Position numbers and translations under genes: made by a program. A stretch of DNA of 64,000 nucleotides from a virus (taxonomy: Duplodnaviria > Heunggongvirae > Uroviricota > Caudoviricetes). The notes under the pieces are model-generated. The model did not search any database. It saw nothing but the letters and a program-made list of their open reading frames with translations, and was not told the DNA's origin. Each line of letters starts with the position of its first letter. Within the stretch, counting starts at the first letter, position 1. The DNA lies in IMG/VR virus record IMGVR_UViG_2925450510_000002, one strand, 5' to 3'. Positions 3,424-26,083 of this stretch are shown one piece after another.

Positions 3424-3426
3424 TAG

Positions 3427-4629: not shown

Positions 4630-4680
4630 GGGTTACCTGCTGAATTGCGGGCATTGAAAAGGCCGCTCATTGGCGGCCTG

Positions 4681-5229: not shown

Positions 5230-5284
5230 TTCGGCCCAGTCGTCGATCACCCCGGAGTAGTCAACAAGCGATTTAGCAATGCTC

Positions 5285-9077: not shown

Positions 9078-9178
9078 AATTTTGTCCTCGCCTTGACATT
9101 ATCGAGCCACCTCTGGAAGTGGCTCTGTAATGCCCATAAAAAAACCCGCCGCAGCGGGTTTGGGATAAAGAATACTCT

Positions 9179-9499: not shown

Positions 9500-9591
9500 G
9501 TCACACCTTATGTTGTAGCCAATCGGCAAAGGCATTATAGACACGCTACTTACGGGGAGAAAGATGGCATTTTAATAACTGCCGGATATGA

Positions 9592-9849
9592 CTAATTTTT
9601 CCCTCTAAATATTTCAGACCGACGTATGTCGGCCTTATCCCGGTTGCACTGCCCCAGCGCTGATAGCAGACTGACGTTTAAATCAAGGCTCTGGCCCCAC
9701 GTCATCTTGTCCGGTATATCAGGATAAGGCGTTTCAGCTGTCAGGCTGGAGGGTAGCGGCACTACCGGAACGGTGACGTAAACTGTCTTTGTATTGCTGC
9801 AACCGCTTAACTGCGCCAGCAGGAATACCAGCGGGAGCGCAATCATCAT
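9592..9849 (-). CDS. o-spanin (Rz1-like lipoprotein), overlapping i-spanin in the +1 frame
   Basis: LAQLSGC lipobox followed by a proline-rich mature region. Starts inside Rz and extends past its stop. Confidence 0.6.
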   Translation of the reverse strand: MMIALPLVFLLAQLSGCSNTKTVYVTVPVVPLPSSLTAETPYPDIPDKMTWGQSLDLNVSLLSALGQCNRDKADIRRSEIFRGKN

Positions 9850-10123
9850 TCGCAACAGCCACTTTGATATCCGCCGCGGCTCCCGATGCGTCCAGTGCGA
9901 TCTGCTCTTTGGCATTTTTGTTGGCCTCCGCGATGGAATTGAATATGGTCATGGTGGTAAGAACGTTGGCTGTGATGGCCTGAGTGCTGTTTACCTGCTG
10001 CTCGGCGCCATCGGCTCGGGTTTTCTGCTCAGCAGCAGCGTTGTGGTAATGCATTACCAGCCACCCAAGGCAAACCATCAGGCAGATCACAACAGCGCTG
10101 ATAATGGCTGCTAATCGGCTCAT
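9734..10123 (-). CDS. i-spanin (Rz-like)
   Basis: N-terminal TM then coiled coil. ATGA overlap with the endolysin stop. Confidence 0.65.
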   Translation of the reverse strand: MSRLAAIISAVVICLMVCLGWLVMHYHNAAAEQKTRADGAEQQVNSTQAITANVLTTMTIFNSIAEANKNAKEQIALDASGAAADIKVAVANDDCAPAGIPAGAVKRLQQYKDSLRHRSGSAATLQPDS

Positions 10124-10650
10124 TCATCTATCCCCCAACATGCCAGTGCGCTTTCCTGATCACGACGAGAGACCTGGCCGTAACAATTGTTCGAACGCAC
10201 GCGGCAATCTTTTCCGCCATCAAAAATCCACCGGCGAATTTCAGCGCAGGCGCCTTTCCGGTCACCGGCATTCAGCTTGCGGTAGAAGGTGGAAGGAAAG
10301 CATTTACCGGGCCCGATGTTATAGGGGCAGAAACTGGCAATCCCGACCTTTTGAGGGGGTGTCAGAGGAACACGCACATTCTGATCTACCCATGCCAGCG
10401 CCTTATTGCGCTCGACGGCATTAACCTGATCGCATTTGGCCTGGGTTAACTTCATTCCCTGGGTTACAGGTCTTCCATCTACCTGGGTAACTCCACGACA
10501 TATCGTCCATATGCCGGCGCCATCGCGGTATGACGTGAGGCTTTTGCCCTCTTTCTCATTCAGGAACTGGTCCATAAGAACGGGAGCTGAAGCGCCAGCA
10601 GCGATAAGCGCCAGCATGGCCGAACTGAGTTTCGTTTTCAGGTTAGCCAT
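10120..10650 (-). CDS. SAR endolysin, GH24 lysozyme (T4 lysozyme-like)
   Basis: N-terminal weakly hydrophobic SAR segment followed by a lysozyme catalytic region. Confidence 0.8.
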   Translation of the reverse strand: MANLKTKLSSAMLALIAAGASAPVLMDQFLNEKEGKSLTSYRDGAGIWTICRGVTQVDGRPVTQGMKLTQAKCDQVNAVERNKALAWVDQNVRVPLTPPQKVGIASFCPYNIGPGKCFPSTFYRKLNAGDRKGACAEIRRWIFDGGKDCRVRSNNCYGQVSRRDQESALACWGIDE

Positions 10651-10652
10651 CG

Positions 10653-10910
10653 CTATTCATCCTGCGGTGGCGGGCCACCATAGCCACGATCGAGGGATTG
10701 CTGATACATCTTCGTCCAGCGGCGCTTAAAGTAGAGATTGGTCAGATAAGTCGCTACACCGATTATCACGCCACTGGCCAGGGCAATAAAATTCCAGTCA
10801 AGGCCATGAAACCAGTCATAGGTCCTTGCCAGCCCGGTGCATATCAGGCCGCCTGACGAGCAGTACGAGGCCGCCGAAAAGATTTTGTCAGGCATTTTCA
10901 TAGTCTCCAC
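10653..10910 (-). CDS. holin (two-TM, pinholin-like)
   Basis: 85 aa with two TMs and a charged C-terminus. First gene of the lysis cassette. Confidence 0.6.
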   Translation of the reverse strand: METMKMPDKIFSAASYCSSGGLICTGLARTYDWFHGLDWNFIALASGVIIGVATYLTNLYFKRRWTKMYQQSLDRGYGGPPPQDE

Positions 10911-11162
10911 CTCCGATAATGTTCGGGGTGCTATCTGTAGTCAGTAAAAGGTTCAGGGCCGTCGGGCTGGATTTAACAACGAAGCGTGTCGATGATGATT
11001 CCCGTGAGCCTGAAATGAAAAAGGCCACGCAAATGCGCAGCCTGTAATTGTCGCGGGTAAAATTTAATTGTCGCTCGTTGGACGCTAACCCGCTTTTGAC
11101 AACGCGCCCATCCAGAGCGCGGCCTCAATGGAGGTCTTCCAGTCGGCCAACTTTTCAGTCGC

Positions 11163-11192
11163 CAGAAACAAAAAACCCCGCCGAAGCGAGGT
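11163..11192 (-). terminator. tR'-like rho-independent terminator of the short late-leader RNA
   Basis: Minus strand reads CCTCGC-TTCG-GCGGGG followed by a U-tract, about 40-60 nt downstream of the putative pR'. Confidence 0.5.
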
Positions 11193-11229
11193 TTCATGTT
11201 TTAATTTCGTACGGGCGTTATATCCCACG

Positions 11230-11270
11230 ATTGAAAGCATACTAGACACTTTTATGCAAAGTCAATACTA
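11230..11270 (-). promoter_or_regulatory. putative late promoter pR' (qut region) downstream of Q
   Basis: Minus strand TTGACT - 18 nt - TATGCT lies between the Q stop and the tR'-like hairpin. This is the lambdoid Q-pR'-tR'-lysis layout. Confidence 0.35.
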
Positions 11271-11306
11271 TCATGCAAAAAATAGCCGATATTTGTTCCG
11301 ATCATA

Positions 11307-12089
11307 TTAATAACTTGTCGCTTTCTCAAATTCTACTGCAGCCTGACGCTCCCCCTGACGCAGCATGTCCACCAGCCCCTCATAGAACGGTTTCCAGTTG
11401 CGTGACCACGAAGACTGATGGAGATCCGGGAGACGCTTCAGAATGGCGCGGTGAACCGTCGCTGAGGGTACAACAGAGAAGCCATTTCCAGAGCAGCGCT
11501 CACATGTTTTGAAAACCGGTGCGCCAAGTTCTTTGGTCGCTTTGCGATCTAACACCTCCCCTTTACCACCACACCTGCATCGCGCATGGATCACTTTCTT
11601 TCCTCCACACACTCCACAGACCCTTTTCACCAGTTCATTTCTAATCTTTGGGGCCTTCACCTCGACACCGTCTGCATCGAAAATACCAGGGTGCTTAATT
11701 ACATCTTCATGGCTGGAAATAAAGCCGGTTCCGCTGCAGCTGTGACACGTTGCGCTGGTGGCCGCCGAACGTGAGTACTCCGCAAAAGCAAATTGTGCCA
11801 GCGTCAACATGCAGGTGCCGAGCTTGTCACCGGCGGCTTTGCGGACATTTTTAGGAGCGTTTTTGATGGCAAACTGCGCCAGCGCCTGAATTGCAAGCTG
11901 TTCATCCGTTTTGCTGATACCAGCCTTTCCGAAGAAAGCGGCCAGGCCGAAGCGTGCCCTGCTGCTGGTCACACCGATCCCGGTCATAATGTCTGTGCCA
12001 TTCAGGCGATTCGGGGATGTGCTTTTCGCGTCGTCGGTGATATGCATGCCCTGAGGGCTAAAGTGTTTGAGGGAGGCTTCCAGTTTCAT
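11307..12089 (-). CDS. late antiterminator Q (phage 82/21 Q-like family)
   Basis: Cys-rich zinc-binding segments. Positioned just upstream of pR' and the lysis genes. ATGA overlap with the upstream gene. Confidence 0.65.
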   Translation of the reverse strand: MKLEASLKHFSPQGMHITDDAKSTSPNRLNGTDIMTGIGVTSSRARFGLAAFFGKAGISKTDEQLAIQALAQFAIKNAPKNVRKAAGDKLGTCMLTLAQFAFAEYSRSAATSATCHSCSGTGFISSHEDVIKHPGIFDADGVEVKAPKIRNELVKRVCGVCGGKKVIHARCRCGGKGEVLDRKATKELGAPVFKTCERCSGNGFSVVPSATVHRAILKRLPDLHQSSWSRNWKPFYEGLVDMLRQGERQAAVEFEKATSY

Positions 12090-12562
12090 TCTTCGCACTC
12101 CCCGACCAGGTTCAAAATAATGCGATCAAACAGCGAATCCCGTTCCTCAAAATAGTCACATGCCAGTAACCACTTGCAGACTGTTAATGCTTCAGCCCGG
12201 GTAACTGGTTTCATGGCGCACAAAAGGTCAGTGAGCCACCCGCGCCGATCCCAGATAATCTGGACGTAGCCATCGCCATTTTGTGTTTTATACCTGTGAC
12301 GAAGTACGGATTCCCAGTAATCCCATTCAATGGTTACATCGCTTAATGTCCAGGGAGAGAGGAGGATGTTTTTAAAACCTTTAATTTCTCTTACGCGAAG
12401 TTCTTCCGCCTCACGACTTAAGTTTTTTTCATCGGCCCAGTTTGCATAAATATGACTGAAGCGCTCCATAACAAGGCGCTCAGCATCAGTAATTTTCTCA
12501 GGCGAAAAGTCCTGTTCGATGGTGAAGAATTGGTTATGTTGCAGATTGTTATTGTTCATCAT
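12086..12562 (-). CDS. hypothetical nin-region protein, 158 aa
   Basis: ORF between primase and Q. Start overlaps the primase stop. Confidence 0.5.
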   Translation of the reverse strand: MMNNNNLQHNQFFTIEQDFSPEKITDAERLVMERFSHIYANWADEKNLSREAEELRVREIKGFKNILLSPWTLSDVTIEWDYWESVLRHRYKTQNGDGYVQIIWDRRGWLTDLLCAMKPVTRAEALTVCKWLLACDYFEERDSLFDRIILNLVGECEE

Positions 12563-13521
12563 GCTGCCACCTTTTTATAGAAAACTTGTTCACGAACCTG
12601 ATCGCCGTTCATAAGCATATCATTGAAATCTCCGTTATCCGGCCAGCGTATGCTGACTTTCACCAGGTCGTTTTTCGCCAGCAGGTTTGCGTGGGCGCAC
12701 TCGAACGCCGCGGCATGTCCAGTTGCAGAGTGCTTGTCCATGTCGGCAAAAATAATCAGATGCTTCACACCTGCCGGGACCCGGAATTTCTTCATAAACC
12801 CGCTGTTGATTACCGCCCAGGTGTTGACGCCATAAACCTGATAACAGGAGAGTGCTGTTTCGATACCTTCGGCAATGCCGATCGTCGTTGATACCGGAAA
12901 CATGCGAATGGCCACAGAGCGGGCGTGATCCAGATAGCTGTCCTCTTGAAGCGACTTAAGACGTTTGGCGCTATCAATATCTGCCTTCCTGTCGCCGTCC
13001 AGCAGCGTCTGGTGCAGGTAACAAAGCTCAGCTTTGTCATCGGTAGCCAGGGCATACAGAGCTTGATAAACGCGCCCCGCATGGCGTTGGCGGTCACAAA
13101 AACGGATGCCTTCTGCCGGCAGGCGACTTATCCCACGTTGAAGAAGGTAACCAGCCGCGCTAGTTCCCCGTAAATCGAGCAACTTGGAAAACTTACTGAT
13201 GACTCGCTGGCGCTGCCGCGCCGCCGAACTGTTAGAAGGCACGTTGATGCGCTGATAGTTATTCCCGATGAGCTGGTCCACTTCTGCGCAGATGGCGGAA
13301 AAGCTTTTTGACTGGGTCAGGGTCAGCAGCTTCATCCCGTCACCGCTACCGCATACACAGATCCATGTACCCTGACCGTCACGGTCATCAACGCGATACT
13401 TCCCCCGCGCCTTACAGACCGGACATTCTCCCTTGTAATGGTTTTTCCCGGTGATAGGCGGCAGCCCGTAATATTCAAAAATTTCTGACCACCGGCCTTT
13501 TGCTGCTTCTGCTGTTTTCAT
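12559..13521 (-). CDS. DNA primase (zinc-binding CHC2-like N-terminus plus TOPRIM)
   Basis: CPVCKARGKYRV zinc ribbon, IAEGIETALS and IFADMD TOPRIM motifs. Start placed 1 nt after the helicase stop. Confidence 0.75.
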   Translation of the reverse strand: MKTAEAAKGRWSEIFEYYGLPPITGKNHYKGECPVCKARGKYRVDDRDGQGTWICVCGSGDGMKLLTLTQSKSFSAICAEVDQLIGNNYQRINVPSNSSAARQRQRVISKFSKLLDLRGTSAAGYLLQRGISRLPAEGIRFCDRQRHAGRVYQALYALATDDKAELCYLHQTLLDGDRKADIDSAKRLKSLQEDSYLDHARSVAIRMFPVSTTIGIAEGIETALSCYQVYGVNTWAVINSGFMKKFRVPAGVKHLIIFADMDKHSATGHAAAFECAHANLLAKNDLVKVSIRWPDNGDFNDMLMNGDQVREQVFYKKVAA

Positions 13522-13522
13522 A

Positions 13523-15181
13523 TCACTGACTCGCACTATTTACGTTTTTCTGGAGTTTTCGTTTTGCTTCGATAATTAATTGCCCGTCGCTGCCCTCAGG
13601 AGGCTCATAGTTGATACTGGCGCTCGGAGGTGGAAATAGATCCTGGTCAGGTTTCTTCCCCATCTGCTGCAGGCGTTCGCGGCGTTTAGCAAATTTGATA
13701 AGTTTGTGTTTGATGTGATTGCTGACCTCCGGTGTGATCTCCATTGGAAAGTCGCTTAAGCCGTTGGGCCATTCGCCGAATTTCTCCTGAAAGGTATGAG
13801 CACACCAGCCATCGCTGACAGGTTTCCCCTGCGCCGCACGATGACGCTGGTAAAACTTGATCTGACTCCACCAGGACTGCTTGTCGCTTTTGGTATAAAC
13901 CGTTTCGTGCTTGCTCATTTTTTTGATGTTGCGGGTGCCGTCAGTCTCGACGTCCTGACCAACGAGCGGTTTAAATCCGCACTTTGGGCAGACGTAAACG
14001 CCGGATGGCTTCATGAAATGACATTCGGGGCATTCTTTCGGAAGTTTTTCTTCGCGCTCCTTAGTTGCGCCGGCAGCGGCCGCTTTCATGCCGTCGTTTG
14101 TGGATGGCAGATCGTCGTATTCGATGGAGTCAGGGAAGCCGAGGCGATGCACAGTGCCACTGTGATCAAAAATCAGGCAGGCATCTTTCCCGGGTGCAGT
14201 TCGCAGTCCGCGGCCCAGCGCCTGCAGCCAGCGAATTTCACTTTTTGTCGGACGGGCGTAGATAATGCAGCGAACATCACTATCAAAACCGGCCACCAGC
14301 ACACCCACACTGACGATTATTTTTGTGGCGCCAGTCTCGAAGCGGTGGATCATCGCCTGCCGTTCTTCGTGGGGTGTTTCTGCGACCATCACCTCAGCGT
14401 TAATGCCCGCCTTGTTAAACTGCATGGTTACAAAGTTTGCGTGGGCCTTGTTAACGCAGAACGCCACCGTAGGAAGGTCACGACCATGACGAAGCCAGTT
14501 ATCGACGATATCGCCCACCAGGTCAGAACCGCACATGATTTCCGCCAGCTGGGACTCGTCGTAATCAGTACCGAACTCTATAGATGGCTTCGTTTCTACC
14601 CCGCTAAGATCCGGTTTTGTTGGGGCGAAAAATTCGTACTTACTGAGGTCACCACGCTGGATCAATTCGCCAATCGTCGTTGGCTTAATCAGGTGTTGAT
14701 AGTAATGGCCCAGGAACGGCGCAAAAGGGGTACCAGATAAACCGATAACCTTCGCTTTTTTCTCCGCTGTGATCCGTTCGATTTCTTTCAGGATACGGCG
14801 TTTACGCAGGTGCGCCTCATCGACAATAAGCAGATCGATGTTTTTGGGAAATTCACGCCTAATGAGCGTGTCAGCGCTCGCAATCTGGATCAGCAGATTT
14901 GGGTCGTAGTTCGGGTGATCACGCCAGATAAAACTAATCTGGTCTTCCGGCAACCCGTATTCTGTAAAGCGCTGGGCGGTCTGGTTAATCAGGATCGTAT
15001 ACGGGGCGACAAACAGAACACGCATACCACGACTAACCAGGCCGGCGGCGATAAACGCAGCCAGGCCTGTTTTGCCGCTTCCGGTCGGTGCGTAGACCAT
15101 GAAGGAATCGTGCGCCTTCCAGGTGCGCCGCAGCATGTTAAGCCCACGTTCCTGTGCAAAGTTCGGTGTGATGTTAAGCAT
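13523..15181 (-). CDS. SF2 DEAH-box helicase with C-terminal zinc ribbon (replication)
   Basis: Walker A APTGSGKT, a DEAH motif, and CPECHF...CPKCGF. Confidence 0.8.
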   Translation of the reverse strand: MLNITPNFAQERGLNMLRRTWKAHDSFMVYAPTGSGKTGLAAFIAAGLVSRGMRVLFVAPYTILINQTAQRFTEYGLPEDQISFIWRDHPNYDPNLLIQIASADTLIRREFPKNIDLLIVDEAHLRKRRILKEIERITAEKKAKVIGLSGTPFAPFLGHYYQHLIKPTTIGELIQRGDLSKYEFFAPTKPDLSGVETKPSIEFGTDYDESQLAEIMCGSDLVGDIVDNWLRHGRDLPTVAFCVNKAHANFVTMQFNKAGINAEVMVAETPHEERQAMIHRFETGATKIIVSVGVLVAGFDSDVRCIIYARPTKSEIRWLQALGRGLRTAPGKDACLIFDHSGTVHRLGFPDSIEYDDLPSTNDGMKAAAAGATKEREEKLPKECPECHFMKPSGVYVCPKCGFKPLVGQDVETDGTRNIKKMSKHETVYTKSDKQSWWSQIKFYQRHRAAQGKPVSDGWCAHTFQEKFGEWPNGLSDFPMEITPEVSNHIKHKLIKFAKRRERLQQMGKKPDQDLFPPPSASINYEPPEGSDGQLIIEAKRKLQKNVNSASQ

Positions 15182-15489
15182 TGTCAGCCCTTTTTGAGTT
15201 CTACTCTTCCAGGAAGAAACATTCCTGACCTCTTGCCGGGATACCGTGTACCAGTTTGCTAGTGCGCCGCTCTTTTATGGTTCTGCCTTCAAGATCGGTA
15301 CCTACCTAACCCATGTACCTGTCTGTTGGAAAAGGACGCTATTCCTGCCCTAACTCCCAACTCCCCCCAACCCCCCTCTTCCCTCTTCCCCATCCCATGT
15401 ACTCGCAAGCTGGTACAAAGAACAAAAAACAGTCAAGGATTGTTCCCTGCTATCACCCGGCACCTTTAAGCCCGGTGACCAACGGATCG

Positions 15490-15783
15490 TTACTGAGATC
15501 CGGCCAGGGGTGGCTGGGTCGTATACCCCTGCAGTGCGCGTCCGTGTGCATCCACGAATCTGCGAAGCCTCACATTGGCTTCATGCCTTGCCCGGTTCTC
15601 CTTGCGGTATGGAACGGGCTCGGCTTCGAACGATTCCTGATACACAGCTGCATAACGCTGAATGGCTTTTTGTCGTGCTGCTGGCGTCAGGCTCAGTAAC
15701 TGCTGCTTGATCCATTCTTCATCTGCAGATGCGTACACAGATGGGAGCAAACCGTGGTCAGGCCTCATCCCGTGCAACATCAT
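15490..15783 (-). CDS. hypothetical protein in the cII position
   Basis: 97 aa, immediately downstream of cro. No recognisable HTH. Confidence 0.4.
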   Translation of the reverse strand: MMLHGMRPDHGLLPSVYASADEEWIKQQLLSLTPAARQKAIQRYAAVYQESFEAEPVPYRKENRARHEANVRLRRFVDAHGRALQGYTTQPPLAGSQ

Positions 15784-15979
15784 CTGAAAATACCTCGTCC
15801 AAACTTGTATTCAGGCCAAGCTGTTTAAACGCGCTGACGATCCGCTTTCCGACTGCAACATCAGGAATCCTTCTTCCTGTTTCGTAGTGGCTAACGGCCC
15901 CCTGGGAGCTATCAATCAGCGCGGCCAGCTCTCCCTGAGTTACCTTTGCTTTGCGTCTAAGGCTCTTGATTCCACTCAT
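15758..15979 (-). CDS. cro: Cro-like HTH repressor
   Basis: 73-aa XRE HTH (VTQGELAALIDSSQGAVSHYETGRR), divergent from cI. Confidence 0.65.
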   Translation of the reverse strand: MSGIKSLRRKAKVTQGELAALIDSSQGAVSHYETGRRIPDVAVGKRIVSAFKQLGLNTSLDEVFSDDVARDEA

Positions 15980-16076
15980 TCGATTAGTCTCGCATAAATA
16001 ATACATAACGTACTATACACGGTCACAAGAATAATACAAAATGGAAGTTGCTCAGTAAATACGGAATGTAATAATC
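15980..16076. promoter_or_regulatory. OR region between divergent cro and cI with three spaced ATAAT(A/C)CA repeats
   Basis: Repeats at about 15998, 16031 and 16070. The element CCATTTTGTATT (inverted) recurs downstream of cI. Confidence 0.45.
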
Positions 16077-16745
16077 ATGGCTATGAAACAGAGATGGCAG
16101 GACCTGGCCAAAACCAGGATGAAAGAAGTCGGCATGACTCAAGAACAGCTGGCAGAGGCGCTCGGCATAACGCAGGGCGGGCTGGGCCATTGGTTAAACG
16201 CCAGACGTGAACCGAACTTAGAGGTTATAGCTAAGATTTTTAACATATTGAAAATGCCCGGCTTCGTAGTAAATGCTGACGGCACTATCAGCGACTCAAG
16301 AGCCGATCACAATGTAAGTTTTAATAGCATTAACGAATCCAAGGGAAGCTACCCTGTTATAAGCTGGGTTAGCGCTGGAGATTGGATGGAAGCTGTAGAA
16401 CCGTACCACCGTAGAGCGATAGATCGATGGTATGACACCACCGTTGAATGCTCTGAGGATTCGTTCTGGTTAGACGTCAGAGGCGATTCCATGACATCAC
16501 CAGCAGGGCTGAGCATACCGGAAGGGATGGCGATACTTGTCGATCCCCAAGTGGAAGCAATCAACGGAAAATTGGTTGTAGCGAAACTTGACGGTGACAA
16601 TGAAGCCACTTTCAAAAAGCTTGTTATCGATGCCGGTCAAAGATTTCTCAAACCCCTCAACCCCCAATACCCAATAATCCCTATCAATGGCAATTGCCGT
16701 ATTATCGGGGTTGTAGTCGACGCAAAAATCACCAACCTCCCATAA
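16077..16745 (+). CDS. cI: CI-like repressor with C-terminal S24 (LexA-like) self-cleaving peptidase
   Basis: N-terminal HTH (QEQLAEALGITQGGLGHW) and C-terminal GDSM...K peptidase region. Confidence 0.85.
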   Translation: MAMKQRWQDLAKTRMKEVGMTQEQLAEALGITQGGLGHWLNARREPNLEVIAKIFNILKMPGFVVNADGTISDSRADHNVSFNSINESKGSYPVISWVSAGDWMEAVEPYHRRAIDRWYDTTVECSEDSFWLDVRGDSMTSPAGLSIPEGMAILVDPQVEAINGKLVVAKLDGDNEATFKKLVIDAGQRFLKPLNPQYPIIPINGNCRIIGVVVDAKITNLP

Positions 16746-16748
16746 ATT

Positions 16749-16772
16749 GGCCGCGAAAGCGGCTTTTTTTTT
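16749..16772 (+). terminator. rho-independent terminator after cI
   Basis: GCCGC-GAAA-GCGGC followed by nine T. Confidence 0.6.
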
Positions 16773-16906
16773 GCCTCCAACACCCCACCAGAAACTAAAA
16801 AACCTTGAAAAACAAAATGATGTGAAATAACACACCAAAATACTCCATTTTGTATTGATCTTATTTAATACGTTATGTATTGTTTATGCATTAGCGGATT
16901 AATGGA

Positions 16907-17133
16907 GTGCAAAAGATGAGTACAGAGAAATTTTTTCAACTGGTAACTATACCTGATTACCGTTTCTCTTCCGATAAAGAGCAATGTCAAAACATTGATT
17001 TCGACAAAATTGCTACTGATTGCGATACAAAAACAATATCTATTTTGCAAGCCATCAATCATATAGGGGTTAGCATAATGAGTGAGGCAGAAGAAAAGAG
17101 ATTAAATAAAGATAAAATAATGATGCTTTCTAG
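16907..17133 (+). pseudogene. 5' part of a small ORF disrupted by IS insertion; the 3' part is at 58857..58953
   Basis: The ORF reads from AT-rich phage DNA into the IS left end. Removing IS-phageB-IS and one CTAG copy rejoins it in frame as a 107-aa ORF. Confidence 0.5.
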
Positions 17134-18328
<1,195 letters not shown>

Positions 18329-19334
18329 TTAACAGCGTACTCCTGTCTACTTCATTTAAGTATTTAAATATACTACCTCTAATTATTAAAGATACAGGAG
18401 AATTTCCACAATAAACTAAATCGGCACCTGTTGGTTTCGCTAATTCTATTAATACATCAGCTGCTGATCCTGACTCGGGAAGTACACCAACAGGCCTCCC
18501 ACCTGAAAATGCAAGTATTTTACCTTCCAGCATGCTTAATTGGGGAAGCTCTTCAACATATGAATCAGGAACACGAAGGCTTCTTCGGAAATTGCTATCA
18601 ATCTTCTGATCAAGAATGGCATCACCAGCTTTCCAGGCATTAGTGTTGTCAACAATCTGCCTATCAACATAATTCTTCGTGGACGCATCCTGCGCCTGTG
18701 ACGGGTCACGCAGGTTACGAATGCGGTTGTTGAGTGCGTCGTAATAGTTCGCGAGCCACGATGGCTTCCTGAGAGATAGACCGGACCACCACCCATATGC
18801 CTGCTGCACCAGCATGGTCAACTTATCGAGAGCATCTTCGTGGATCTCAGGGAAAAAGCCACCCTGGTTCCTGATGCTGGCTTCCTGCGTAACCGGCGTG
18901 CTGCGCTCGATAGAGATTTTGTAGCCAGCTGGCAGCGCTGATGTCAGAACCACCTTCCCCCCGTTGTAACGGTTTACTCCGGTAACCGTGTAGTCGGTAC
19001 CGAGTGTTAGCGTCACGATGCTTTCGGAGGTATCCAGGGTCTGCACCAGCAGGTGGCTTTTATCCAGGATGCGGAACGTGAAATCGTATTGGGTAGTGGC
19101 GCCGTTTCCGGTGTACTCGTTACGGCTTACCTGCGTTGAAACTGTCATAGTCTGCTCCAGTGGTCAGCGCTGGCGCGCGTGCATAGAAGCATTCTATTAC
19201 CCATCAAACCATATATGAATAAAACAGATCGAAACGAGCAAAAACATTACCATTAAGGTAAATAAAACCTTCTGGAAAACCCTGTTACCTTTTGATATAT
19301 GTATATATATACAGTATTTATCGGAGTAATCCTA

Positions 19335-19595: not shown

Positions 19596-19733
19596 TGATT
19601 GAAATCAAAATAAAGATGGGTTTATCATTACCAAAATGGTAAATTTACAACCCATTTTCCTTGTGCCATAGTGATCGGGCATCGGCAAAATCCGGTGCCG
19701 GGATTGGCGTCCCGGATAACTAAACGGCGCACA

Positions 19734-19756
19734 ACACGCGCACTGCGTGTTTTTTT
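19734..19756 (+). terminator. rho-independent terminator
   Basis: ACACGC-GCACT-GCGTGT followed by TTTTTT. Confidence 0.5.
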
Positions 19757-19909
19757 GTGCACGCGCTCTGACGCACCTATCCAATGGTGGGCTGGGCGGG
19801 GGTCCGAAAGGACGCCGGTATCCGTTTAGGCCGGTACGCCAACTCCGTTCAGTTCACCACCAGTAATTGGCGTTGCGGTGGTGATAACTCTACTAAGCGG
19901 GGTATCACA

Positions 19910-20599
19910 ATGAACACCAAACCTTCCATTTTCAATTTCGAATCAGACTCAGCTATTCGCGCCATTATGATCGATGGCAATCCTTGGTTTTTTGCATCCG
20001 ATGTTTGCCGCGCGATTGGCATCGCAAACCATCGTGATGCAGTTCGCAAACTTGATGATGACGAGAAGGGCGTCGGCTCAACCGACACCCTTGGTGGTGA
20101 GCAAGAATCAGTTATCATCTCCGAGTCTGGCCTCTACACCCTTATCCTCCGCTGCCGCGATGCGGTGACGCCGGGCACCATCCCCTACCGCTTCCGCAAA
20201 TGGGTAACCAGCGAGGTGCTGCCGCAGATCCGCAAGACTGGCCGCTACGTTCGGGAAGAACTCTCCCAGGCTGATAAAGCCCGCATGCTGGCGCAGGAGA
20301 TGACCAGCAGCATGTTGCCGGCGATCATGGATGCATTGCAGGTCGAGCAGAAGCATTACACCTTCCCTCTTAACCGACGCTATCAGGATCACATCCATTC
20401 ACCTGATGGCCTGCGTGAACTGGCGAAAAGCTCAATGGTGATGAAGCTGCTCCGCGAACTCGATGCTGACGGGCATGATGTTTCCGGCGCCGCCGCAGAG
20501 GTCACGGCCATGCTCAGCTACATTGTTGGTATCGGTGCCGTACTGCGCGACATAGAGACGCATGCTCAGTACGTGATGGTTAAGGCCAAGGGTTACTGA
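19910..20599 (+). CDS. antirepressor (Bro-N / AntA-like N-domain plus C-terminal domain)
   Basis: SIFNFESDSAIRAIMIDGNPWFFASDVCRAIG is a Bro-N signature. Confidence 0.7.
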   Translation: MNTKPSIFNFESDSAIRAIMIDGNPWFFASDVCRAIGIANHRDAVRKLDDDEKGVGSTDTLGGEQESVIISESGLYTLILRCRDAVTPGTIPYRFRKWVTSEVLPQIRKTGRYVREELSQADKARMLAQEMTSSMLPAIMDALQVEQKHYTFPLNRRYQDHIHSPDGLRELAKSSMVMKLLRELDADGHDVSGAAAEVTAMLSYIVGIGAVLRDIETHAQYVMVKAKGY

Positions 20600-20976: not shown

Positions 20977-21375
20977 ATGGCCGACCATAACAATGGAGTG
21001 CAAAGGCATCAGGCTGAAGTATTAGAGCAACTTATCGAGAATCAAAGGCTTGATATTGAGGTCAGGCGAGCAGAAGTAGAAACAAAATCTAAGGAAATTG
21101 AGGCCAATGAAAGAATTGGCCTCAGATCTATTGAGGCCCAGGAAAAAGTCCAGGTATCTCTAGGGCGTAGAGAAACGACCAATATTCTCATCCGCGTTGG
21201 TGGGTTTCTTTTGGCGTTTCTTTTCGTTCTGATCTTCATTGGTTTTGCCATAAAAAATGATGCTAAAGATATAGTTATTGAGCTAATGAAGTATGTTGTC
21301 CCGCTTATCATTGGTGGACTTGGTGGTTTTTATATTGGTAAAGCCAAGGGAAAAGATGAGGCTAGTGGTGAGTAA
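20977..21375 (+). CDS. coiled-coil protein with C-terminal double TM anchor
   Basis: 132 aa. Starts 5 nt after the previous stop. Low GC. Confidence 0.5.
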   Translation: MADHNNGVQRHQAEVLEQLIENQRLDIEVRRAEVETKSKEIEANERIGLRSIEAQEKVQVSLGRRETTNILIRVGGFLLAFLFVLIFIGFAIKNDAKDIVIELMKYVVPLIIGGLGGFYIGKAKGKDEASGE

Positions 21376-21445
21376 CTAACTGTACTTGATTTTTATGGAT
21401 GAAATCTAAGCGCAGCGCTAAACTCATGAAGCCACGTTCAGTGGT

Positions 21446-21844
21446 CTACACATGGTAAGTGAAAATGAAAAAAGCATTCGCAGTGCTGTTTGTTCTGTTG
21501 TCTCTGGGTTCTTCTGCACAGGCTTTCGCGTACTGGATAACCCGATCGCGGATTTCAGGACGGACTTTGTTGGGACTGATGGTATTGAGCCAACCGGCCA
21601 ACTTGCGAAGAGCGAGGCAAATCATTTTGCGGGTTTTACCATCAGCGGCAACCATAGAGATTTCCTCTATAGTTGATGAGAAGCGCTGTTTCAGCTTGGT
21701 GTATTGACCCATCCAGTCCATACCCATCCCCTCAACGATAGGTTTCATCGGGGTATACGGCTCGCCGTTGTGGTTAACGACGTAGAGGCTTGCACCGTGG
21801 AAAGGTACATTGATTGTACGATCTGCAATTGCTAAACTTGTCAT
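21446..21844 (-). CDS. antirepressor, P22 Ant N-terminal-domain-like
   Basis: LAIADRTINVPFHGASLYVVNHNGEPYTPMKPIVEGMGMDW fits the P22_AR_N pattern. AGGAAA SD. Downstream of the arc-like gene. Confidence 0.55.
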   Translation of the reverse strand: MTSLAIADRTINVPFHGASLYVVNHNGEPYTPMKPIVEGMGMDWMGQYTKLKQRFSSTIEEISMVAADGKTRKMICLALRKLAGWLNTISPNKVRPEIRDRVIQYAKACAEEPRDNRTNSTANAFFIFTYHV

Positions 21845-21915
21845 GTCAATATTTCCTACGCTGGTTTGTTGATAATGAAGCCCCGAAGGTGCCAGCCAAC
21901 GGGGCTTCGCTGTTT

Positions 21916-22068
21916 TTACTGCGCATGCATTTGCCCTCTGAACTTCAGTGCCCATACAAGCGCCTGAACTAAAGCTGCATTTTCAGAAAGCCCCTCCTCC
22001 TCCGCAATGCGTTTGAACTCTTCTTTTACTTTCTGCGGATAACGCAGAGTTGTTTTTGCCTCTTTCAT
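21916..22068 (-). CDS. Arc-like ribbon-helix-helix repressor, 50 aa
   Basis: MKEAKTTLRYPQKVKEEFKRIAEEEGLSENAALVQALVWAL parallels P22 Arc (LRWPREVLDLVRKVAEENGRSVNSEIYQRVMES). Confidence 0.6.
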   Translation of the reverse strand: MKEAKTTLRYPQKVKEEFKRIAEEEGLSENAALVQALVWALKFRGQMHAQ

Positions 22069-22157
22069 TCCTACCCCTCCTCCTCCGCAATGCGTTTGAA
22101 CTCTTCTTTTACTTTCTGCGGATAACGCAGAGTTGTTTTTGCCTCTTTCATTCCTAC
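21992..22157. repeat. perfect 83-bp tandem duplication (2 copies) covering the arc-like 5' end and its upstream region
   Basis: The unit CCCTCCTCCTCCGCAATGCG...CATTCCTAC is repeated head to tail. Confidence 0.8.
22071..22151 (-). pseudogene. truncated duplicate of the arc-like gene (26 codons, stop created at the repeat junction)
   Basis: The second repeat copy carries the same RBS and ATG. The frame ends at a TAG formed by the junction. Confidence 0.5.
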
Positions 22158-22251
22158 CCCTCCATTGATGGCATTATGCCTTGAAAGCAGAATGCCATCA
22201 TTGAAATTAAATAGCAATATGCCATCATCGTTTTTTTCTAAGGTTGATGTG

Positions 22252-22617
22252 ATGACAGAAAAACAGGTTAAAGATTACGAAAAATTTGTCGTGCGATTCC
22301 CCGATGGGATGCGCGACGCCGTCGCTGAGCGAGCCAAAAGCAACGGGAGATCCATGAATTCAGAGATCGTGCAGATAATTGAGGATGCGCTTTCTGGTGC
22401 CCCGGCTGTCGCCATTGACAGTCACAAAGAACTGGTTGAGCGCTACCGTGCGCTGGCGAAATCACTACCTGATAATGGCAACAGTGAGGAGTGGCAAAAA
22501 GAGATCGACAGGCTTAGTATTGCTATCATTGATGCAATGACTCCACTTGTGTTGCTACGAACTGAGTTAGTGAAACTCTCTGATAAAGCTAAAAATCATG
22601 ATGAAACCCAAAAATAA
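22252..22617 (+). CDS. Mnt-like ribbon-helix-helix repressor
   Basis: SNGRSMNSEIVQIIEDAL matches P22 Mnt ANGRSMNSELLQIVQDAL. Divergent from arc/ant. Confidence 0.7.
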   Translation: MTEKQVKDYEKFVVRFPDGMRDAVAERAKSNGRSMNSEIVQIIEDALSGAPAVAIDSHKELVERYRALAKSLPDNGNSEEWQKEIDRLSIAIIDAMTPLVLLRTELVKLSDKAKNHDETQK

Positions 22618-23194
22618 ACTATTTATTATTTCTGCTGTGATTTTCTGCTCGGGATTGTTTGTTTATTCAGCGGTGGCGGCGCTCAAGCACTTCACTCGGG
22701 ATGAATCCATAGTTCTTTCTGGGAAAGAAGCTAACAATTTCTTTTCTAATTACATCATCCCTATCACGGGACCAGGAATCCAGATTACCAATCAATATGC
22801 TGGATACGATGTCACCTATGGTATTGATAATGATGATAGAATCGAACTGCACGTGTCGGTATTGCGTCTACGAACATACAAAGAGAATGCAGACCTCGGC
22901 GAATCTAATAAAAACTATGTAGAAGGAAGTAAAACCGTATTCAGCTTTGGCACTGATGTTTACACTGAGGACTTTATAAAATTCACATCAGAAGCTACTA
23001 AAAGATCGACAAAGGAAGGTTTAAAGAAACTGTATTGTAATCCTGATGGATTTTATCCTATGTCATCACAGGAAAGGATCTTCTACGAAGCGCGGAAAGA
23101 ACATAAAAAAATAATTATAGATTATTACAGTGACTCGGGGAAAACCCTTATGTTTGGCATTGGGATTTCTCCCGAGTCATGCAGCCAAAAATGA
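22598..23194 (+). CDS. AT-rich secreted or membrane-anchored hypothetical protein (moron)
   Basis: 198 aa with an N-terminal hydrophobic signal/anchor. GC is much lower than the surrounding DNA. Confidence 0.5.
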   Translation: MMKPKNKLFIISAVIFCSGLFVYSAVAALKHFTRDESIVLSGKEANNFFSNYIIPITGPGIQITNQYAGYDVTYGIDNDDRIELHVSVLRLRTYKENADLGESNKNYVEGSKTVFSFGTDVYTEDFIKFTSEATKRSTKEGLKKLYCNPDGFYPMSSQERIFYEARKEHKKIIIDYYSDSGKTLMFGIGISPESCSQK

Positions 23195-26083
23195 TTAACG
23201 CATACCAGGATCAAATTGGTTCAGTATCGGTGCAATCCAAAACAGGTTGTTACCAGGAATTACCGTACGCACGTTATGCAATACCCGATCACCAGCATCA
23301 CCATTCAGCACGCCAGCCGTCACATCAGTAACAGTATCAAGCAGCCCGAACGTTGGCCCCAGCGCAGAACCGATAAAGCCTCGGCTGGCGTAGCGGGATT
23401 GCGTACCGGTACCGAGCATCGGCCCTAAGCCAAACATCCCGCCAGTAGCCTTCTCCGCCATGTTGTTGTATTCCATCAGCGGGCCGAGAATACCAGAGCG
23501 ATCGATCCCCTCCAGCGCAAGTTTCTGCGGTGACCAGTCTACCTCTTTACCATTCGCGGCCTGCTTAAGTGCGTAGGTTAGCGCTCCAAGCGCAATTTGA
23601 AAGGCCGTGCCATAGTAAAACTGTGCGTTACCTTCTGATAATCCGCCAATTGTGGCGCGGTTATATGATGCAGTCGTGAACGAGCGGAACTGGAAAACCG
23701 TTCGCCCGATAGGGGAGCTGGCCCACAATGGCGTATCGCCTATCCCCGGCGTGATAATGATGTTGTTGGTATCCTTCAAAACTGCCGACTGGAATACACC
23801 TGAAGCATAATCATCATCCCATTTATCAAAATTGCCAATGTGCCAACCATCAAGCACCTCGCCATGCTTACGAAACTGTTCATTTATGCGCACAGCCGTG
23901 GCCGGACTGATGCCCAGTTTCGCAATCCTGGAGGCTGGAGCCGACCCGGACAGAATGCTGTCAGCGGTCACCATGCCATTAATCGCTTTGTTAATGTCGT
24001 TATACTGCCCCATCAGTGTGAGCTTTCCGAACACATCGGTGACACGGTCTAGCCCGGCTTCAGCCGCGTTTGTACGCGTGGAACTGTCAACCAGATCAGC
24101 CATCAGGCGCGAACGGGAGTTAAGCACCGTTTCAACCATAACCCCCATCTTTTTCATTTCGCTTTTGTTGGCGGCGAACGCCGGTGACCTGGATATCAGG
24201 GCACCATAACCCTTCATGGTTTTACTGAATCCATTGACCATCACGCCGCGGGCGAGATCGGGAATCGCGGAAACCGTCATTCCACCAAGTTTGGTAACGA
24301 AGTTTACGTTACGCATAGCCCGACCAGCGCGAACAAAAAATGATGATGGGTCATCAGGCATTCCATACGTACCGACTAAACGATCACGCATAGCAGTGAT
24401 ATCCCGAATATCATTCTCACGTGCTTTAGCTAATTTGGCCTGCTCCTGAGGACGCGCTCGCATCAGTTCGTCATATTCATCCTGTATAGCCTTAAGCTGG
24501 GACTCAAGGTTGCGGTTTCCGAAAACGCGGGTTAATTCGATATCCGGAGAAGCCTCCCGGATATGCCGCTGCAATACATAGTTAGCGTCACTCTCCAGAT
24601 AATCGCGCATCATATTATCAGGCAGATTTAAAGTACGCTGCCGTGAGCTTCCAGGAACTTTGACGGTAAAAACGTTCGCAAAATCCTGGGGGATTTTTGC
24701 ACCAACGATTTTATTTATTGTTGCGTCTGCGGCGATCTCCGCATCTTCTCGTGACATAGCGGAAGGCCCACGCGACCACCAGTTAACTAAAAGATCACGG
24801 AATTTATCGCGCTCCTCAACAATTTTCCCCACTCTGTATACTCGAGGGAAATAACTGGTCTGCCCCAATGCTTTTAGCTCCGCATCAGGCGGTAGTAAGC
24901 CAAGATCCTGTTGAGCAACTTTCACCCTGTCGACTACCTGACGCAATGCCCGCGCGGCATCCTGAACAGCGGCATTGCCATGAATGTCACCATTTCGCAT
25001 GGCGTCGCCGACTTCTTCACGGAATCGTGTGTAATTGAGATCGCCACCATCAGATTTATATTTGGCATACGCCTGCTTATTGGTGACCACTACTGCGGCC
25101 TCCTCCCTCCTCCAACCACGCACGCGGGTTTCAGCCGCAACAGGGGTCTCAAATCCGCGTTGGTTACCCCGCAGCGCAAAGTTATTTTCCGCCAGTTCCA
25201 GCGCCGTGATCCGAGCGTTACGCGATGGCGACGAAATGACCCGCGATATTGGCGTCATATACCCGCCAGCCTTTAACGCGATATCCGCCGCTTTTCCCCC
25301 ATCAAGTGTGAGATCGTCAAGCGTTGCCTGCCTGATCTGCATCGCACCGACACTACCACCATCGGGCAGGCTATCCATCCCACGATTAATAGCGTTAGTC
25401 ATGCCGACATTTTCCAGCGCATCAGCCATTTCCCGTGTGGCCGCTGTTCTTACCGACGGGGTGATCATCGCTCCAGCAGTCGCAAAAATACCGCTGAGCA
25501 TGGCTCCTGCGGTGATGTGTGCGGCACTTTCCCCCAGAGTCCTTGTGTACTGCTGGTTGTTAAGTGCGACTTCGCTCAACGCAGTACCGGCGGCACCGAT
25601 CGCAACCTGTGAACCGATACGCGCTGCAAGAGTACCCTGAGTGCCGGGGATGAACATCGAGGCAATGGTAACAGGGTCGATAAGACCGGCGGCAATACTC
25701 GCCAGAGTACCTTCGGCGCCCGCCTCCCCCAACACCCGACGATCTTCATTTTCGTTGTCAATTTGACTTTTAATCCATGCGGTTTCCTCTGGCGACTGAG
25801 AATCTGCGAAAGCAGATCCCCATTGCTCATAACCATGAATTTCATTCTTATCAGAATACGGGTTATAACCTTGTGCTGGTTCGAATTGTTTTGCCGGACG
25901 AAACATCCCAGCCAGCAAGTTATTCTGACGAAACGCAGCCCCCCATACAGACGGCTGCTGCTGCGGCGGCTCTGGATTGGTGCCGGCTGGTAGTGATACG
26001 TCAAAACCGGCTGGCTCCTGCAGGGCGCTACCTGCTGGCACGTATCCATTGCCGTATTCATCAGGAGTTGGATAGATAGGCAT
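23195..26083 (-). CDS. internal virion / ejection protein (T7 gp15/gp16 class), 962 aa
   Basis: Large Gly/Ala-rich protein in series with gp14-like and SLT-containing proteins, downstream of the tail tube genes. Confidence 0.55.
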   Translation of the reverse strand: MPIYPTPDEYGNGYVPAGSALQEPAGFDVSLPAGTNPEPPQQQPSVWGAAFRQNNLLAGMFRPAKQFEPAQGYNPYSDKNEIHGYEQWGSAFADSQSPEETAWIKSQIDNENEDRRVLGEAGAEGTLASIAAGLIDPVTIASMFIPGTQGTLAARIGSQVAIGAAGTALSEVALNNQQYTRTLGESAAHITAGAMLSGIFATAGAMITPSVRTAATREMADALENVGMTNAINRGMDSLPDGGSVGAMQIRQATLDDLTLDGGKAADIALKAGGYMTPISRVISSPSRNARITALELAENNFALRGNQRGFETPVAAETRVRGWRREEAAVVVTNKQAYAKYKSDGGDLNYTRFREEVGDAMRNGDIHGNAAVQDAARALRQVVDRVKVAQQDLGLLPPDAELKALGQTSYFPRVYRVGKIVEERDKFRDLLVNWWSRGPSAMSREDAEIAADATINKIVGAKIPQDFANVFTVKVPGSSRQRTLNLPDNMMRDYLESDANYVLQRHIREASPDIELTRVFGNRNLESQLKAIQDEYDELMRARPQEQAKLAKARENDIRDITAMRDRLVGTYGMPDDPSSFFVRAGRAMRNVNFVTKLGGMTVSAIPDLARGVMVNGFSKTMKGYGALISRSPAFAANKSEMKKMGVMVETVLNSRSRLMADLVDSSTRTNAAEAGLDRVTDVFGKLTLMGQYNDINKAINGMVTADSILSGSAPASRIAKLGISPATAVRINEQFRKHGEVLDGWHIGNFDKWDDDYASGVFQSAVLKDTNNIIITPGIGDTPLWASSPIGRTVFQFRSFTTASYNRATIGGLSEGNAQFYYGTAFQIALGALTYALKQAANGKEVDWSPQKLALEGIDRSGILGPLMEYNNMAEKATGGMFGLGPMLGTGTQSRYASRGFIGSALGPTFGLLDTVTDVTAGVLNGDAGDRVLHNVRTVIPGNNLFWIAPILNQFDPGMR

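What the first reader, a model, noticed from the sequence alone, without database searches (positions are those of the whole stretch)
21446..22617. P22 immI-like mnt / arc / ant cassette with a perfect 83-bp tandem duplication that makes a truncated second arc
A Mnt-like ribbon-helix-helix gene (SNGRSMNSEIVQIIEDAL) is divergent from an Arc-like 50-aa gene, which is followed by a P22 Ant N-domain-like antirepressor. A perfect 83-bp tandem duplication (21992..22157) copies the arc RBS, ATG and first 26 codons plus upstream sequence. It ends in a junction-created TAG, so there are now two arc translation starts and duplicated operator/promoter DNA. A GC hairpin (21878..21908) lies between arc and ant. 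The cassette is unusually placed, as a moron between the ejection-protein genes and the tail fibre of a T7-like structural block. A perfect duplication indicates a very recent event. It could change ant repression or yield a dominant-negative Arc N-peptide.
Basis: partly seen in the sequence, partly recalled or inferred. Interest (0 to 1): 0.6.

Follow-up and report, generated by a model that had tools for sequence, protein, structure and literature searches.

The report
Phage immunity switch with repeated arc start
This is an ordinary P22-type antirepressor control module (mnt, arc, sar RNA, ant) in a decaying Klebsiella prophage; its 83-bp duplication is real but is a shared 1-to-3-copy polymorphism with no shown function, and the ant gene it would regulate is broken here.

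Summary
The 83-bp perfect tandem duplication is real (21991..22163: two units plus 7 bp). The gene calls hold. Mnt-like and Arc-like proteins pass Pfam Arc, the antirepressor matches P22_AR_N, and a sar-like antisense RNA lies between arc and ant.

- **Placement.** The cassette sits where P22 and E. coli phage TL-2011b carry immI, between the last ejection or internal-virion gene and the tail spike or fibre.
- **Age.** The duplication is not private or recent. Of 21 public Klebsiella-sized assemblies carrying this module, 11 have one copy, 9 have two and 1 has three, on near-identical haplotypes.
- **Content.** Each unit holds only the arc Shine-Dalgarno (GGAGGGG), 5 nt, the ATG and codons 1-26. 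No operator or promoter DNA is copied.

The unit is bounded by GGAGGGG microhomology, present in both the Shine-Dalgarno and codons 24-26. This fits slipped-strand duplication.

The private event here is a 751-bp deletion that removes two-thirds of ant. The tail-fibre gene is also cut by ISKpn26.

Most likely the duplication is a near-neutral extra 26-codon arc' minicistron upstream of an intact arc. Interest is low.

The parts
22252..22617 (+). mnt-like repressor gene (121 aa): N-terminal ribbon-helix-helix domain plus a longer C-terminal part unrelated to P22 Mnt
   Evidence: Pfam Arc PF03869 E=3e-19. 46% identity to P22 Mnt residues 3-50, E=6e-13. PDB hits AmrZ 3qoq and Mnt 1mnt. phrog_3178 E=4e-40.
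22598..23194 (+). orf198, an N-terminally membrane-anchored protein. It overlaps the mnt stop by 20 nt and is probably co-transcribed with mnt. It is the positional counterpart of P22 sieA/orf59a.
   Evidence: ORF list. phrog_8033, unknown function. 44% identical to TL-2011b gp39. P22 map.
22163..22251 (.). Divergent control region, single copy. Three operator-like sites share ATGCCATCA (22163-22182, 22184-22203, 22213-22228). Promoter-like hexamers: Pmnt TTGAAA-16-CATCAT at 22201..22228 (+); putative Pant TTGCTA-17-CATTCT at 22217..22189 (-).
   Evidence: the repeat finder. Promoter scan. The hexamers sit at the same positions in the homologous PhiR5_1 intergenic region. Promoter and operator roles are inferred, not shown.
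21991..22163 (.). Perfect tandem array: 2 units of 83 bp plus 7 bp. It is bounded by three copies of CCCCTCC (GGAGGGG on the arc strand) at 21991-21997, 22074-22080 and 22157-22163.
   Evidence: TRF. Script. 1, 2 or 3 copies in other assemblies.
22071..22151 (-). arc' minicistron, with its own Shine-Dalgarno and ATG and 26 codons (MKEAKTTLRYPQKVKEEFKRIAEEEG). Its TAG lies 2 nt before the arc ATG.
   Evidence: Translations of all frames. ORF list.
21916..22068 (-). Intact arc-like repressor gene (50 aa)
   Evidence: Pfam Arc 22.4 bits against cut-off 20.4. phrog_582 Arc-like repressor. 33% identity to P22 Arc, E=3e-8. PDB Arc chains. 80% identity to PhiR5_1 Arc homologue.
21846..21917 (+). sar-like antisense RNA, complementary to the ant ribosome-binding site. 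The terminator hairpin at 21877..21908 is followed by a T run. Putative Psar is TTGATT-17-TAAACT at 21811..21839.
   Evidence: Rfam sar RF00262 full-length match, 28.5 bits (below gathering score 43), E=0.007. Alignment to the P22 sar region conserves the -10 box and the terminator stem. Fold -27.6 kcal/mol, z=-4.0. Same place and strand as P22 sar. The TL-2011b homologue scores 44.8 bits.
21446..21844 (-). ant remnant: codons 1-105 of a 314-aa antirepressor fused to 27 unrelated codons. The 751-bp deletion junction lies between 21530 and 21529.
   Evidence: The window is 100% identical to L002 apart from L002 3540..4290. Junction sequence. P22_AR_N E=4.6e-38. The truncated product is found in a single contig, CP027053.1.
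21465..21529 (+). Remnant (first ~21 codons, a signal peptide) of a convergent 50-aa ORF, truncated by the same deletion
   Evidence: The full ORF MKKAFAVLFVLLSLGSSAQAFAGNCQHPDD... is present in L002 and L003. Similar DNA is annotated 'transmembrane anchored protein' in Klebsiella phages.

Best explanation
The region is a genuine P22-type immI module. Mnt-like repressor and orf198 are transcribed one way. arc, a sar-like antisense RNA and ant run the other way, from overlapping divergent promoters. The module belongs to a temperate Klebsiella prophage with a T7-like virion gene order, and it sits in the usual immI position. By analogy with P22 (inferred), Mnt keeps Pant off in the lysogen, Arc shuts Pant down after infection, sar RNA blocks ant translation, and Ant inactivates the prophage repressor.

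The 83-bp duplication arose by slipped-strand or microhomology-mediated recombination between two GGAGGGG heptamers. One is the arc Shine-Dalgarno; the other is codons E24-E25-G26. The result is one extra self-contained minicistron (arc', 26 codons) between the single promoter-operator region and an intact arc. Its TAG lies 2 nt before the arc ATG, so arc is probably still translated, by its own duplicated Shine-Dalgarno or by termination-reinitiation.

The array is an unstable copy-number polymorphism (1, 2 or 3 units) that travels with the prophage in bacterial lineages. It is most likely neutral or nearly so, because Pant is presumably repressed in lysogens.

In this genome the module is a relic. 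A private 751-bp deletion has destroyed ant, and the prophage tail-fibre gene is cut by ISKpn26.
For: **Module identity.** Pfam and PHROG hits. BLASTP to P22 Arc, Mnt and Ant gives 33%, 46% and 39% identity. PDB hits to Arc and Mnt. The sar-like RNA has a conserved -10 box and terminator.

**Position.** Same gene order and position as P22 and TL-2011b.

**Repeat anatomy.**. The operators lie outside the unit.

**Polymorphism.** Among 21 assemblies, 11 carry one copy, 9 carry two and 1 carries three. After collapsing the array, L008 (1 copy) and L012 (2 copies) differ by 2 SNPs in 5,493 bp. L013 (3 copies) is identical over 3,808 bp to four 2-copy loci.

**Microhomology.** The closest Arc homologue (PhiR5_1, 80% identity) lacks the GGAGGGG pair and has no such repeat.

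**Decay.** ant deletion. ISKpn26 in the tail fibre, shared with other 2-copy genomes.

**RNA accessibility.** Predicted accessibility of the arc Shine-Dalgarno changes only modestly, from 0.57 to 0.31 (with an assumed transcription start).
Against: - No expression or binding data exist. The promoter, operator and transcription-start assignments are consensus-level inferences.
- The Rfam sar score is below the gathering threshold in this window.
- The 2-copy allele is common (9 of 21) and lies on at least two prophage haplotypes about 10% divergent downstream of ant. Selection could therefore be acting rather than drift. Sampling is biased towards complete genomes and clonal hospital lineages.
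- The single 3-copy case is an 8.4-kb contig that may come from short reads, which resolve a 256-bp array poorly.
Confidence: 0.7

Rival explanations
1. The array is a functional tuning device. Each added arc' minicistron lengthens the leader and changes translation of arc, and therefore Arc-dependent shut-off of Pant and Ant output. Copy number would then set how readily the phage antirepresses itself or co-resident prophages.
For: Copy number varies (1-3) between near-identical haplotypes. The 2-copy allele is frequent. Predicted unpaired probability of the functional arc Shine-Dalgarno drops from 0.57 to 0.31 with extra copies. The arc' stop lies 2 nt from the arc ATG, a geometry typical of translational coupling.
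Against: The promoter, the operators and the arc coding sequence are unchanged. The duplication needs only a chance 7-bp microhomology. The lineage of this window keeps 2 copies in a prophage whose tail fibre is cut and, here, whose ant is deleted, so no selection through Ant is possible. There are no expression data.
Confidence: 0.18
2. The 26-aa Arc' peptide (N-terminal arm, beta-strand and helix A) acts as a dominant-negative partner of Arc or competes for operator DNA.
For: arc' has the same Shine-Dalgarno and ATG as arc and is first on the transcript. It ends at the glycine that aligns with the helix A-helix B turn of P22 Arc (alignment).
Against: From established knowledge of Arc structure, ribbon-helix-helix proteins are obligate dimers whose hydrophobic core needs helix B. 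A fragment without helix B is expected to be unfolded and degraded. No such peptide family was found. Not tested here.
Confidence: 0.05
3. The duplication is an assembly or sequencing artefact.
For: Short tandem repeats can be miscounted by short-read assemblers. The 3-copy case is an 8.4-kb contig.
Against: The identical 2-copy array is present in nine independent assemblies. Several are multi-megabase or complete chromosomes (CP027053.1, CP196128.1, LT216436.1, CP083007.1, UWXA01000001.1, UWYB01000001.1, UWWU01000001.1). Other complete chromosomes have one copy.
Confidence: 0.03

Closest known systems
Salmonella phage P22 immI region (mnt - Pmnt/Pant with Oarc and Omnt - arc - sar - ant), NC_002371 14240..16035
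   Same: Same gene order and orientations. Same position between the last ejection-protein gene and the tail spike or fibre. Mnt is followed by small genes on its strand. The mnt-arc intergenic region is about 100 bp, against 90 bp in P22. The antisense RNA starts next to the ant ATG and ends at the arc stop. Arc, the Mnt N-domain and Ant are 33%, 46% and 39% identical.
   Different: The Mnt-like protein is 121 aa against 83 aa, with no detectable similarity after residue 54. Operator sequences differ (ATGCCATCA repeats against the P22 Oarc and Omnt sequences). The virion module is T7-like, not P22-like. An arc' minicistron array is present. ant is truncated in this genome.
E. coli phage TL-2011b (NC_019445) gp39-gp42 module
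   Same: The same module sits in the same slot after the large internal virion protein: an orf198 homologue (44%), an Arc-like repressor, sar (Rfam 44.8 bits, above the gathering score), Ant (65% identical, 314 aa), then a small 'transmembrane anchored protein' and a Bro-N protein.
   Different: Arc and the operators are of another type, with P22-like CCACCGTGG motifs. There is no tandem duplication.
E. coli phage PhiR5_1 Arc homologue (XSB41293.1) and its divergent Mnt-like gene
   Same: It is the closest Arc found in the phage collection (80% identity). The intergenic control region is homologous and the Mnt-like N-domain is similar.
   Different: It lies next to a Rha gene rather than Ant, in an early-region context. 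It lacks the GGAGGGG pair and the 83-bp repeat.
Microhomology-mediated (slipped-strand) tandem duplications in bacterial genomes
   Same: The unit is bounded by a short direct repeat (7 bp). The copies are perfect. Copy number expands and contracts on an unchanged background.
   Different: Classical contingency loci use 1-10-bp units that shift a reading frame or a promoter spacing. Here the unit is 83 bp and leaves both the promoter and the full-length ORF intact.

Membership tests
P22-type immI antirepressor control module | Small Arc-family ribbon-helix-helix repressor as the first gene of the ant operon | tested here: met
   Pfam PF03869 22.4 bits against cut-off 20.4. 33% identity to P22 Arc, E=3e-8. 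PDB Arc chains, E~1e-3.
P22-type immI antirepressor control module | Divergently transcribed Mnt-type ribbon-helix-helix repressor | tested here: met
   PF03869 E=3e-19. 46% identity to P22 Mnt residues 3-50. 1mnt E=2.7e-7. Divergent orientation with 100 bp between the start codons in 1-copy alleles.
P22-type immI antirepressor control module | Mnt C-terminal tetramerisation domain homologous to that of P22 Mnt | tested here: not met
   The BLASTP alignment stops at residue 54 of 121. No Pfam family above cut-off covers residues 55-121. Oligomeric state was not tested.
P22-type immI antirepressor control module | Intact Ant antirepressor (P22_AR_N plus C-terminal part) downstream of arc | tested here: not met
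   In this window only codons 1-105 remain. The feature is met in sister loci, where Ant is 314 aa and 39% identical to P22 Ant over 219 aa.
P22-type immI antirepressor control module | sar antisense RNA across the ant ribosome-binding site, ending in the arc-ant spacer | tested here: inconclusive
   Rfam RF00262 28.5 bits, below gathering score 43, E=0.007. However, the match is full length, on the right strand and at the right place, the -10 box and terminator stem are conserved against P22, and the fold has z=-4.0. Transcription was not shown.
P22-type immI antirepressor control module | Location between the ejection or internal-virion genes and the tail spike or fibre gene | tested here: met
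   The 962-aa internal virion protein lies at 23195..26083 and the T7-type tail-fibre N-domain at 18282..19148. P22 map.
P22-type immI antirepressor control module | Overlapping divergent promoters controlled by Arc and Mnt operators; Ant inactivates the prophage repressor | not testable with these tools
   Only operator-like repeats and promoter-like hexamers are seen.
Repeat-based contingency (phase-variable) locus | Copy number differs between otherwise near-identical genomes | tested here: met
   1, 2 or 3 units, with 0-2 SNPs in 3.8-5.5 kb of flank.
Repeat-based contingency (phase-variable) locus | A copy-number change switches a gene on or off through its reading frame or promoter spacing | tested here: not met
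   The full-length arc ORF, its Shine-Dalgarno and the single promoter-operator region are intact at every copy number.

The most novel reading that the evidence does not exclude
The 83-bp array is a large-unit, reversible copy-number switch in a phage immunity region. The number of arc' minicistrons would set Arc and Ant dosage. Alternatively, a -1 slip on the G_GGG run at the arc' UAG, which lies just downstream of a GGAGGAGGAGGGG Shine-Dalgarno-like tract, would yield a 78-aa Arc'-Val-Gly-Arc fusion. Either way, prophage populations could diversify their induction or cross-induction behaviour.
Probability: 0.06. Interest if true: 0.6.

Novelty: new member of a known kind. Interest (0 to 1): 0.25.

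Why it matters
If the array did tune antirepressor output, it would be an unusual repeat-based control of prophage induction in a clinically important species. As the evidence stands, its value is smaller:
- It corrects the annotation: an immI module with a sar-like RNA, an ant pseudogene, and an unannotated arc' minicistron.
- It gives a clean example of microhomology-mediated duplication, created because a Shine-Dalgarno sequence and a conserved Glu-Glu-Gly coding motif share the same heptamer.
- The 1/2/3-copy marker could help trace this prophage among Klebsiella lineages.

Tried and rejected
- **Exact-pattern scans.** Scans for the arc 5' end or the arc 3' junction found nothing in IMG/VR, in GTDB species representatives or in JGI metagenomes. 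Population frequency therefore had to come from the look-up of encoding contigs samples.
- **Related loci.** The search for related loci with the Mnt-like protein in GTDB genomes gave only two distant, uninformative hits.
- **Phage collection.** A megablast of the cassette matched only 130 bp of the neighbouring small ORF.
- **Literature.** Searches for the source accession, for immI in Klebsiella, and for arc/mnt tandem duplications found nothing relevant.
- **Ant as a stand-alone N-domain antirepressor.** Rejected. It is a deletion remnant.
- **Duplicated operators.** Rejected on coordinates.
- **Artefact.** Rejected on nine independent assemblies.
- **Microhomology at the 751-bp deletion junction.** None is evident.
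- **The 4 'similar places' behind the 3-copy locus L013.** I did not count them as 3-copy, because their sequences were not shown.

Full report
**Observation**

Tandem Repeats Finder reports a single array in 21000..23000. It spans 21991..22163, with period 83, 2.1 copies, 100% matches and score 346. A direct check shows a perfect run of 90 bases at offset 83, so the array is two 83-bp units plus 7 bp. The heptamer CCCCTCC (GGAGGGG on the arc strand) occurs at 21991, 22074 and 22157.

On the minus strand each unit reads GGAGGGG-TAGGA-ATG followed by 71 nt of coding sequence. The upstream copy gives a 26-codon ORF at 22071..22151 (MKEAKTTLRYPQKVKEEFKRIAEEEG). It runs into the TAG of the next unit's spacer, and the ATG of the intact 50-aa arc (21916..22068) follows 2 nt later.

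The claim that operator or promoter DNA is duplicated is not. Only 12 nt upstream of the ATG lie in the unit. The operator-like repeats (22163-22182, 22184-22203, 22213-22228) and the promoter-like hexamers lie almost entirely outside it; the first arm shares only base 22163 with the repeat's last base, and none of them is copied.

**What the genes are**

Profile searches support the ribbon-helix-helix assignments.
- The 50-aa protein passes Pfam Arc (22.4 bits against a cut-off of 20.4).
- The 121-aa protein hits Arc with E = 3e-19.
- The ORF downstream of arc hits P22_AR_N with E = 4.6e-38. PHROGs agree.

Comparison with P22 itself gives the following.
- Arc is 33% identical (E = 3e-8).
- The Mnt N-domain is 46% identical (E = 6e-13). 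The alignment stops at residue 54 of 121.
- Full-length Ant, taken from a sister locus, is 39% identical over 219 aa (E = 5e-41).
- PDB sequence searches return Arc chains for the Arc-like protein, and AmrZ and Mnt for the Mnt-like protein.

Between arc and ant, on the opposite strand, Rfam's sar model matches full length at 21846..21911. The score is 28.5 bits, below the gathering score of 43, with E = 0.007. Several lines support the call despite the low score.
- The match starts 2 nt from the ant ATG and ends at the arc stop, as P22 sar does.
- An alignment with the P22 sar region conserves the Psar -10 box (AATTGCTA-ACT) and the terminator stem GAAGCCC...GGGGCTTC.
- The RNA folds into two hairpins with z = -4.0.
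It is followed by a T run only on the plus (sar) strand, so it should not stop arc-to-ant transcription.

**Placement**

The annotated P22 record has the order 16 (ejection) - sieA - orf59a - mnt - Pmnt/Pant - arc - sar - ant - 9 (tail spike).

The window has the order 962-aa internal virion protein (23195..26083) - orf198 - mnt - control region - arc' - arc - sar - ant - small ORFs - Bro-N antirepressor - tail fibre.

The virion block is indeed T7-like: portal, capsid, tail tubular A and B, internal virion proteins including one with an SLT domain, and a T7 tail-fibre N-domain. But the immI position is the canonical one. E. coli phage TL-2011b carries the same module in the same slot. Its Ant is 65% identical, its orf198 homologue is 44% identical, and its sar scores 44.8 bits, above the gathering score. 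Related Klebsiella prophages carry other cargo in this slot, so it is a mosaic slot, not an odd insertion.

**The duplication is a shared copy-number polymorphism**

The exact Arc protein is indexed in 554 blocks of public assemblies. I sampled loci through Arc, Mnt, orf198 and a junction-specific ORF and counted units by script. Among 21 distinct assemblies, 11 have one unit, 9 have two (including the source, CP027053.1) and 1 has three (L013, an 8.4-kb contig). Several 2-copy cases are complete or multi-megabase chromosomes, so an assembly artefact is very unlikely.

After collapsing the array, L008 (1 copy) and L012 (2 copies) differ by 2 SNPs in 5,493 bp. L013 (3 copies) is identical over 3,808 bp to four 2-copy loci. 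The 2-copy allele also occurs on haplotypes about 10% divergent downstream of ant (L003 against the window). Copy number therefore changes faster than point mutations accumulate.

Perfect identity of the copies says nothing about recency, because the whole module varies by only 0-2 SNPs per several kb.

The closest Arc homologue (PhiR5_1, 80% identity) has neither the GGAGGGG pair nor the repeat. This fits origin by slippage between the Shine-Dalgarno heptamer and the identical heptamer in the Glu-Glu-Gly codons at the end of helix A.

**State of the module in this genome**

The window is 100% identical to locus L002 across the shared region, apart from 751 bp (L002 3540..4290) that are missing between window 21530 and 21529. 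The deletion removes ant codons 106-314 and the 3' end of a convergent 50-aa signal-peptide ORF. No obvious microhomology marks the junction. The resulting 132-aa product occurs in one contig only, CP027053.1. The private, recent event is thus the ant deletion, not the arc duplication.

The tail-fibre ORF (18282..19148) is cut by ISKpn26 at about 17122..18335. This truncation is shared with at least six other assemblies, and the three of them whose arrays I counted all carry 2 copies. The lineage has therefore inherited the 2-copy array within a defective prophage.

**Mechanism**

*Shown.* There is one promoter-operator region, two identical translation-initiation regions, an intact arc, and a stop-start spacing of 2 nt.

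*Inferred.*
- The regulatory circuit follows P22.
- Pant is TTGCTA-17-CATTCT (22217..22189), with a transcription start near 22182. The hexamers sit at the same positions in PhiR5_1.
- arc is still translated, from its own Shine-Dalgarno or by reinitiation after arc'.

With that assumed start, the predicted unpaired probability of the functional arc Shine-Dalgarno falls from 0.57 to 0.31 with extra copies. This is a modest and uncertain effect.

The Arc' peptide ends at the turn before helix B (alignment). From what is known of Arc folding, it should not fold alone.

A -1 slip on G_GGG at the UAG would give a 78-aa Arc'-VG-Arc fusion. This is pure speculation.

**Verdict**

This is a correctly spotted and real repeat in a correctly named cassette. 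The cassette is a standard immI module in its standard place. The repeat is a common, probably near-neutral polymorphism that duplicates no regulatory DNA. Its supposed target, ant, is a pseudogene here. I found no literature on this repeat.

Noticed in passing
window 19679..19864 (+) and 19784..20599 (+): There is a second antirepressor module of a different type right next to the P22-type one. Rfam gathering-level hits to isrK (80.2 bits, 19679..19755) and C4 antisense RNA (66.4 bits, 19780..19864) lie immediately upstream of a Bro-N antirepressor ORF. This is the P1/P7 immI (c4-ant) or Gifsy isrK layout. The prophage therefore carries two antisense-RNA-controlled antirepressor cassettes side by side.
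   Followed up: partly
window 17122..18335 and 18282..19148 (-): The T7-type tail-fibre gene is truncated to 288 codons by an ISKpn26 (IS5-family) insertion, with inverted repeats at 17131-17149 and 18313-18331. The same truncated product occurs in 9 contigs, and the three whose arrays were counted carry 2 copies. DNA on the far side of the IS belongs to another phage, so a rearrangement is likely rather than a simple insertion.
   Followed up: partly
window 57724..58704 (+): A second ISKpn26-like transposase (phrog_3598, E=6e-175) lies beyond the integrase (53866..55116) in the same orientation as the first. Two IS copies therefore bracket the T7-like prophage.
   Followed up: no
window 1..17121: A separate phage-like region abuts the IS. 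It contains a major head protein, protease, portal, large and small terminase, a Q-like antiterminator, primase, helicase and a CI/LexA-type S24 repressor (16077..16745).
   Followed up: partly
window 22598..23194 (+): orf198 overlaps the mnt stop by 20 nt and has an N-terminal membrane anchor. It is conserved next to mnt in TL-2011b (gp39, 44% identity) and sits where P22 has sieA and orf59a. It is a candidate superinfection-exclusion protein, function unknown.
   Followed up: partly
window 22031..22049 and 22114..22132 (+): A terminator-like hairpin plus T run (TTCTGCGGATAACGCAGAG TTGTTTTTGC) lies antisense to arc codons 8-13. It is present twice because of the duplication. It could stop sar read-through before mnt, but it is only a consensus match.
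   Followed up: no
loci L037-L046, L049: The 132-aa membrane protein next to the cassette is indexed in 5,497 blocks. In most of the sampled prophages the immI module is absent from this slot, replaced by 204-aa or 98-aa genes. L043 has a different 72-aa Arc-family gene with the same Ant.
   Followed up: partly
window 37942..38018 (+): tRNA-Arg (anticodon TCT) lies inside the phage late region, between the portal and terminase genes.
   Followed up: no
locus L048 (TL-2011b) 2977..3187: The TL-2011b arc-mnt intergenic region contains P22 Omnt-like CCACCGTGG motifs. The annotated gp40 appears to start downstream of a ribbon-helix-helix-like N-terminus (…KRSMNAE…), so the Mnt-like gene start may be mis-annotated or frameshifted.
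   Followed up: no
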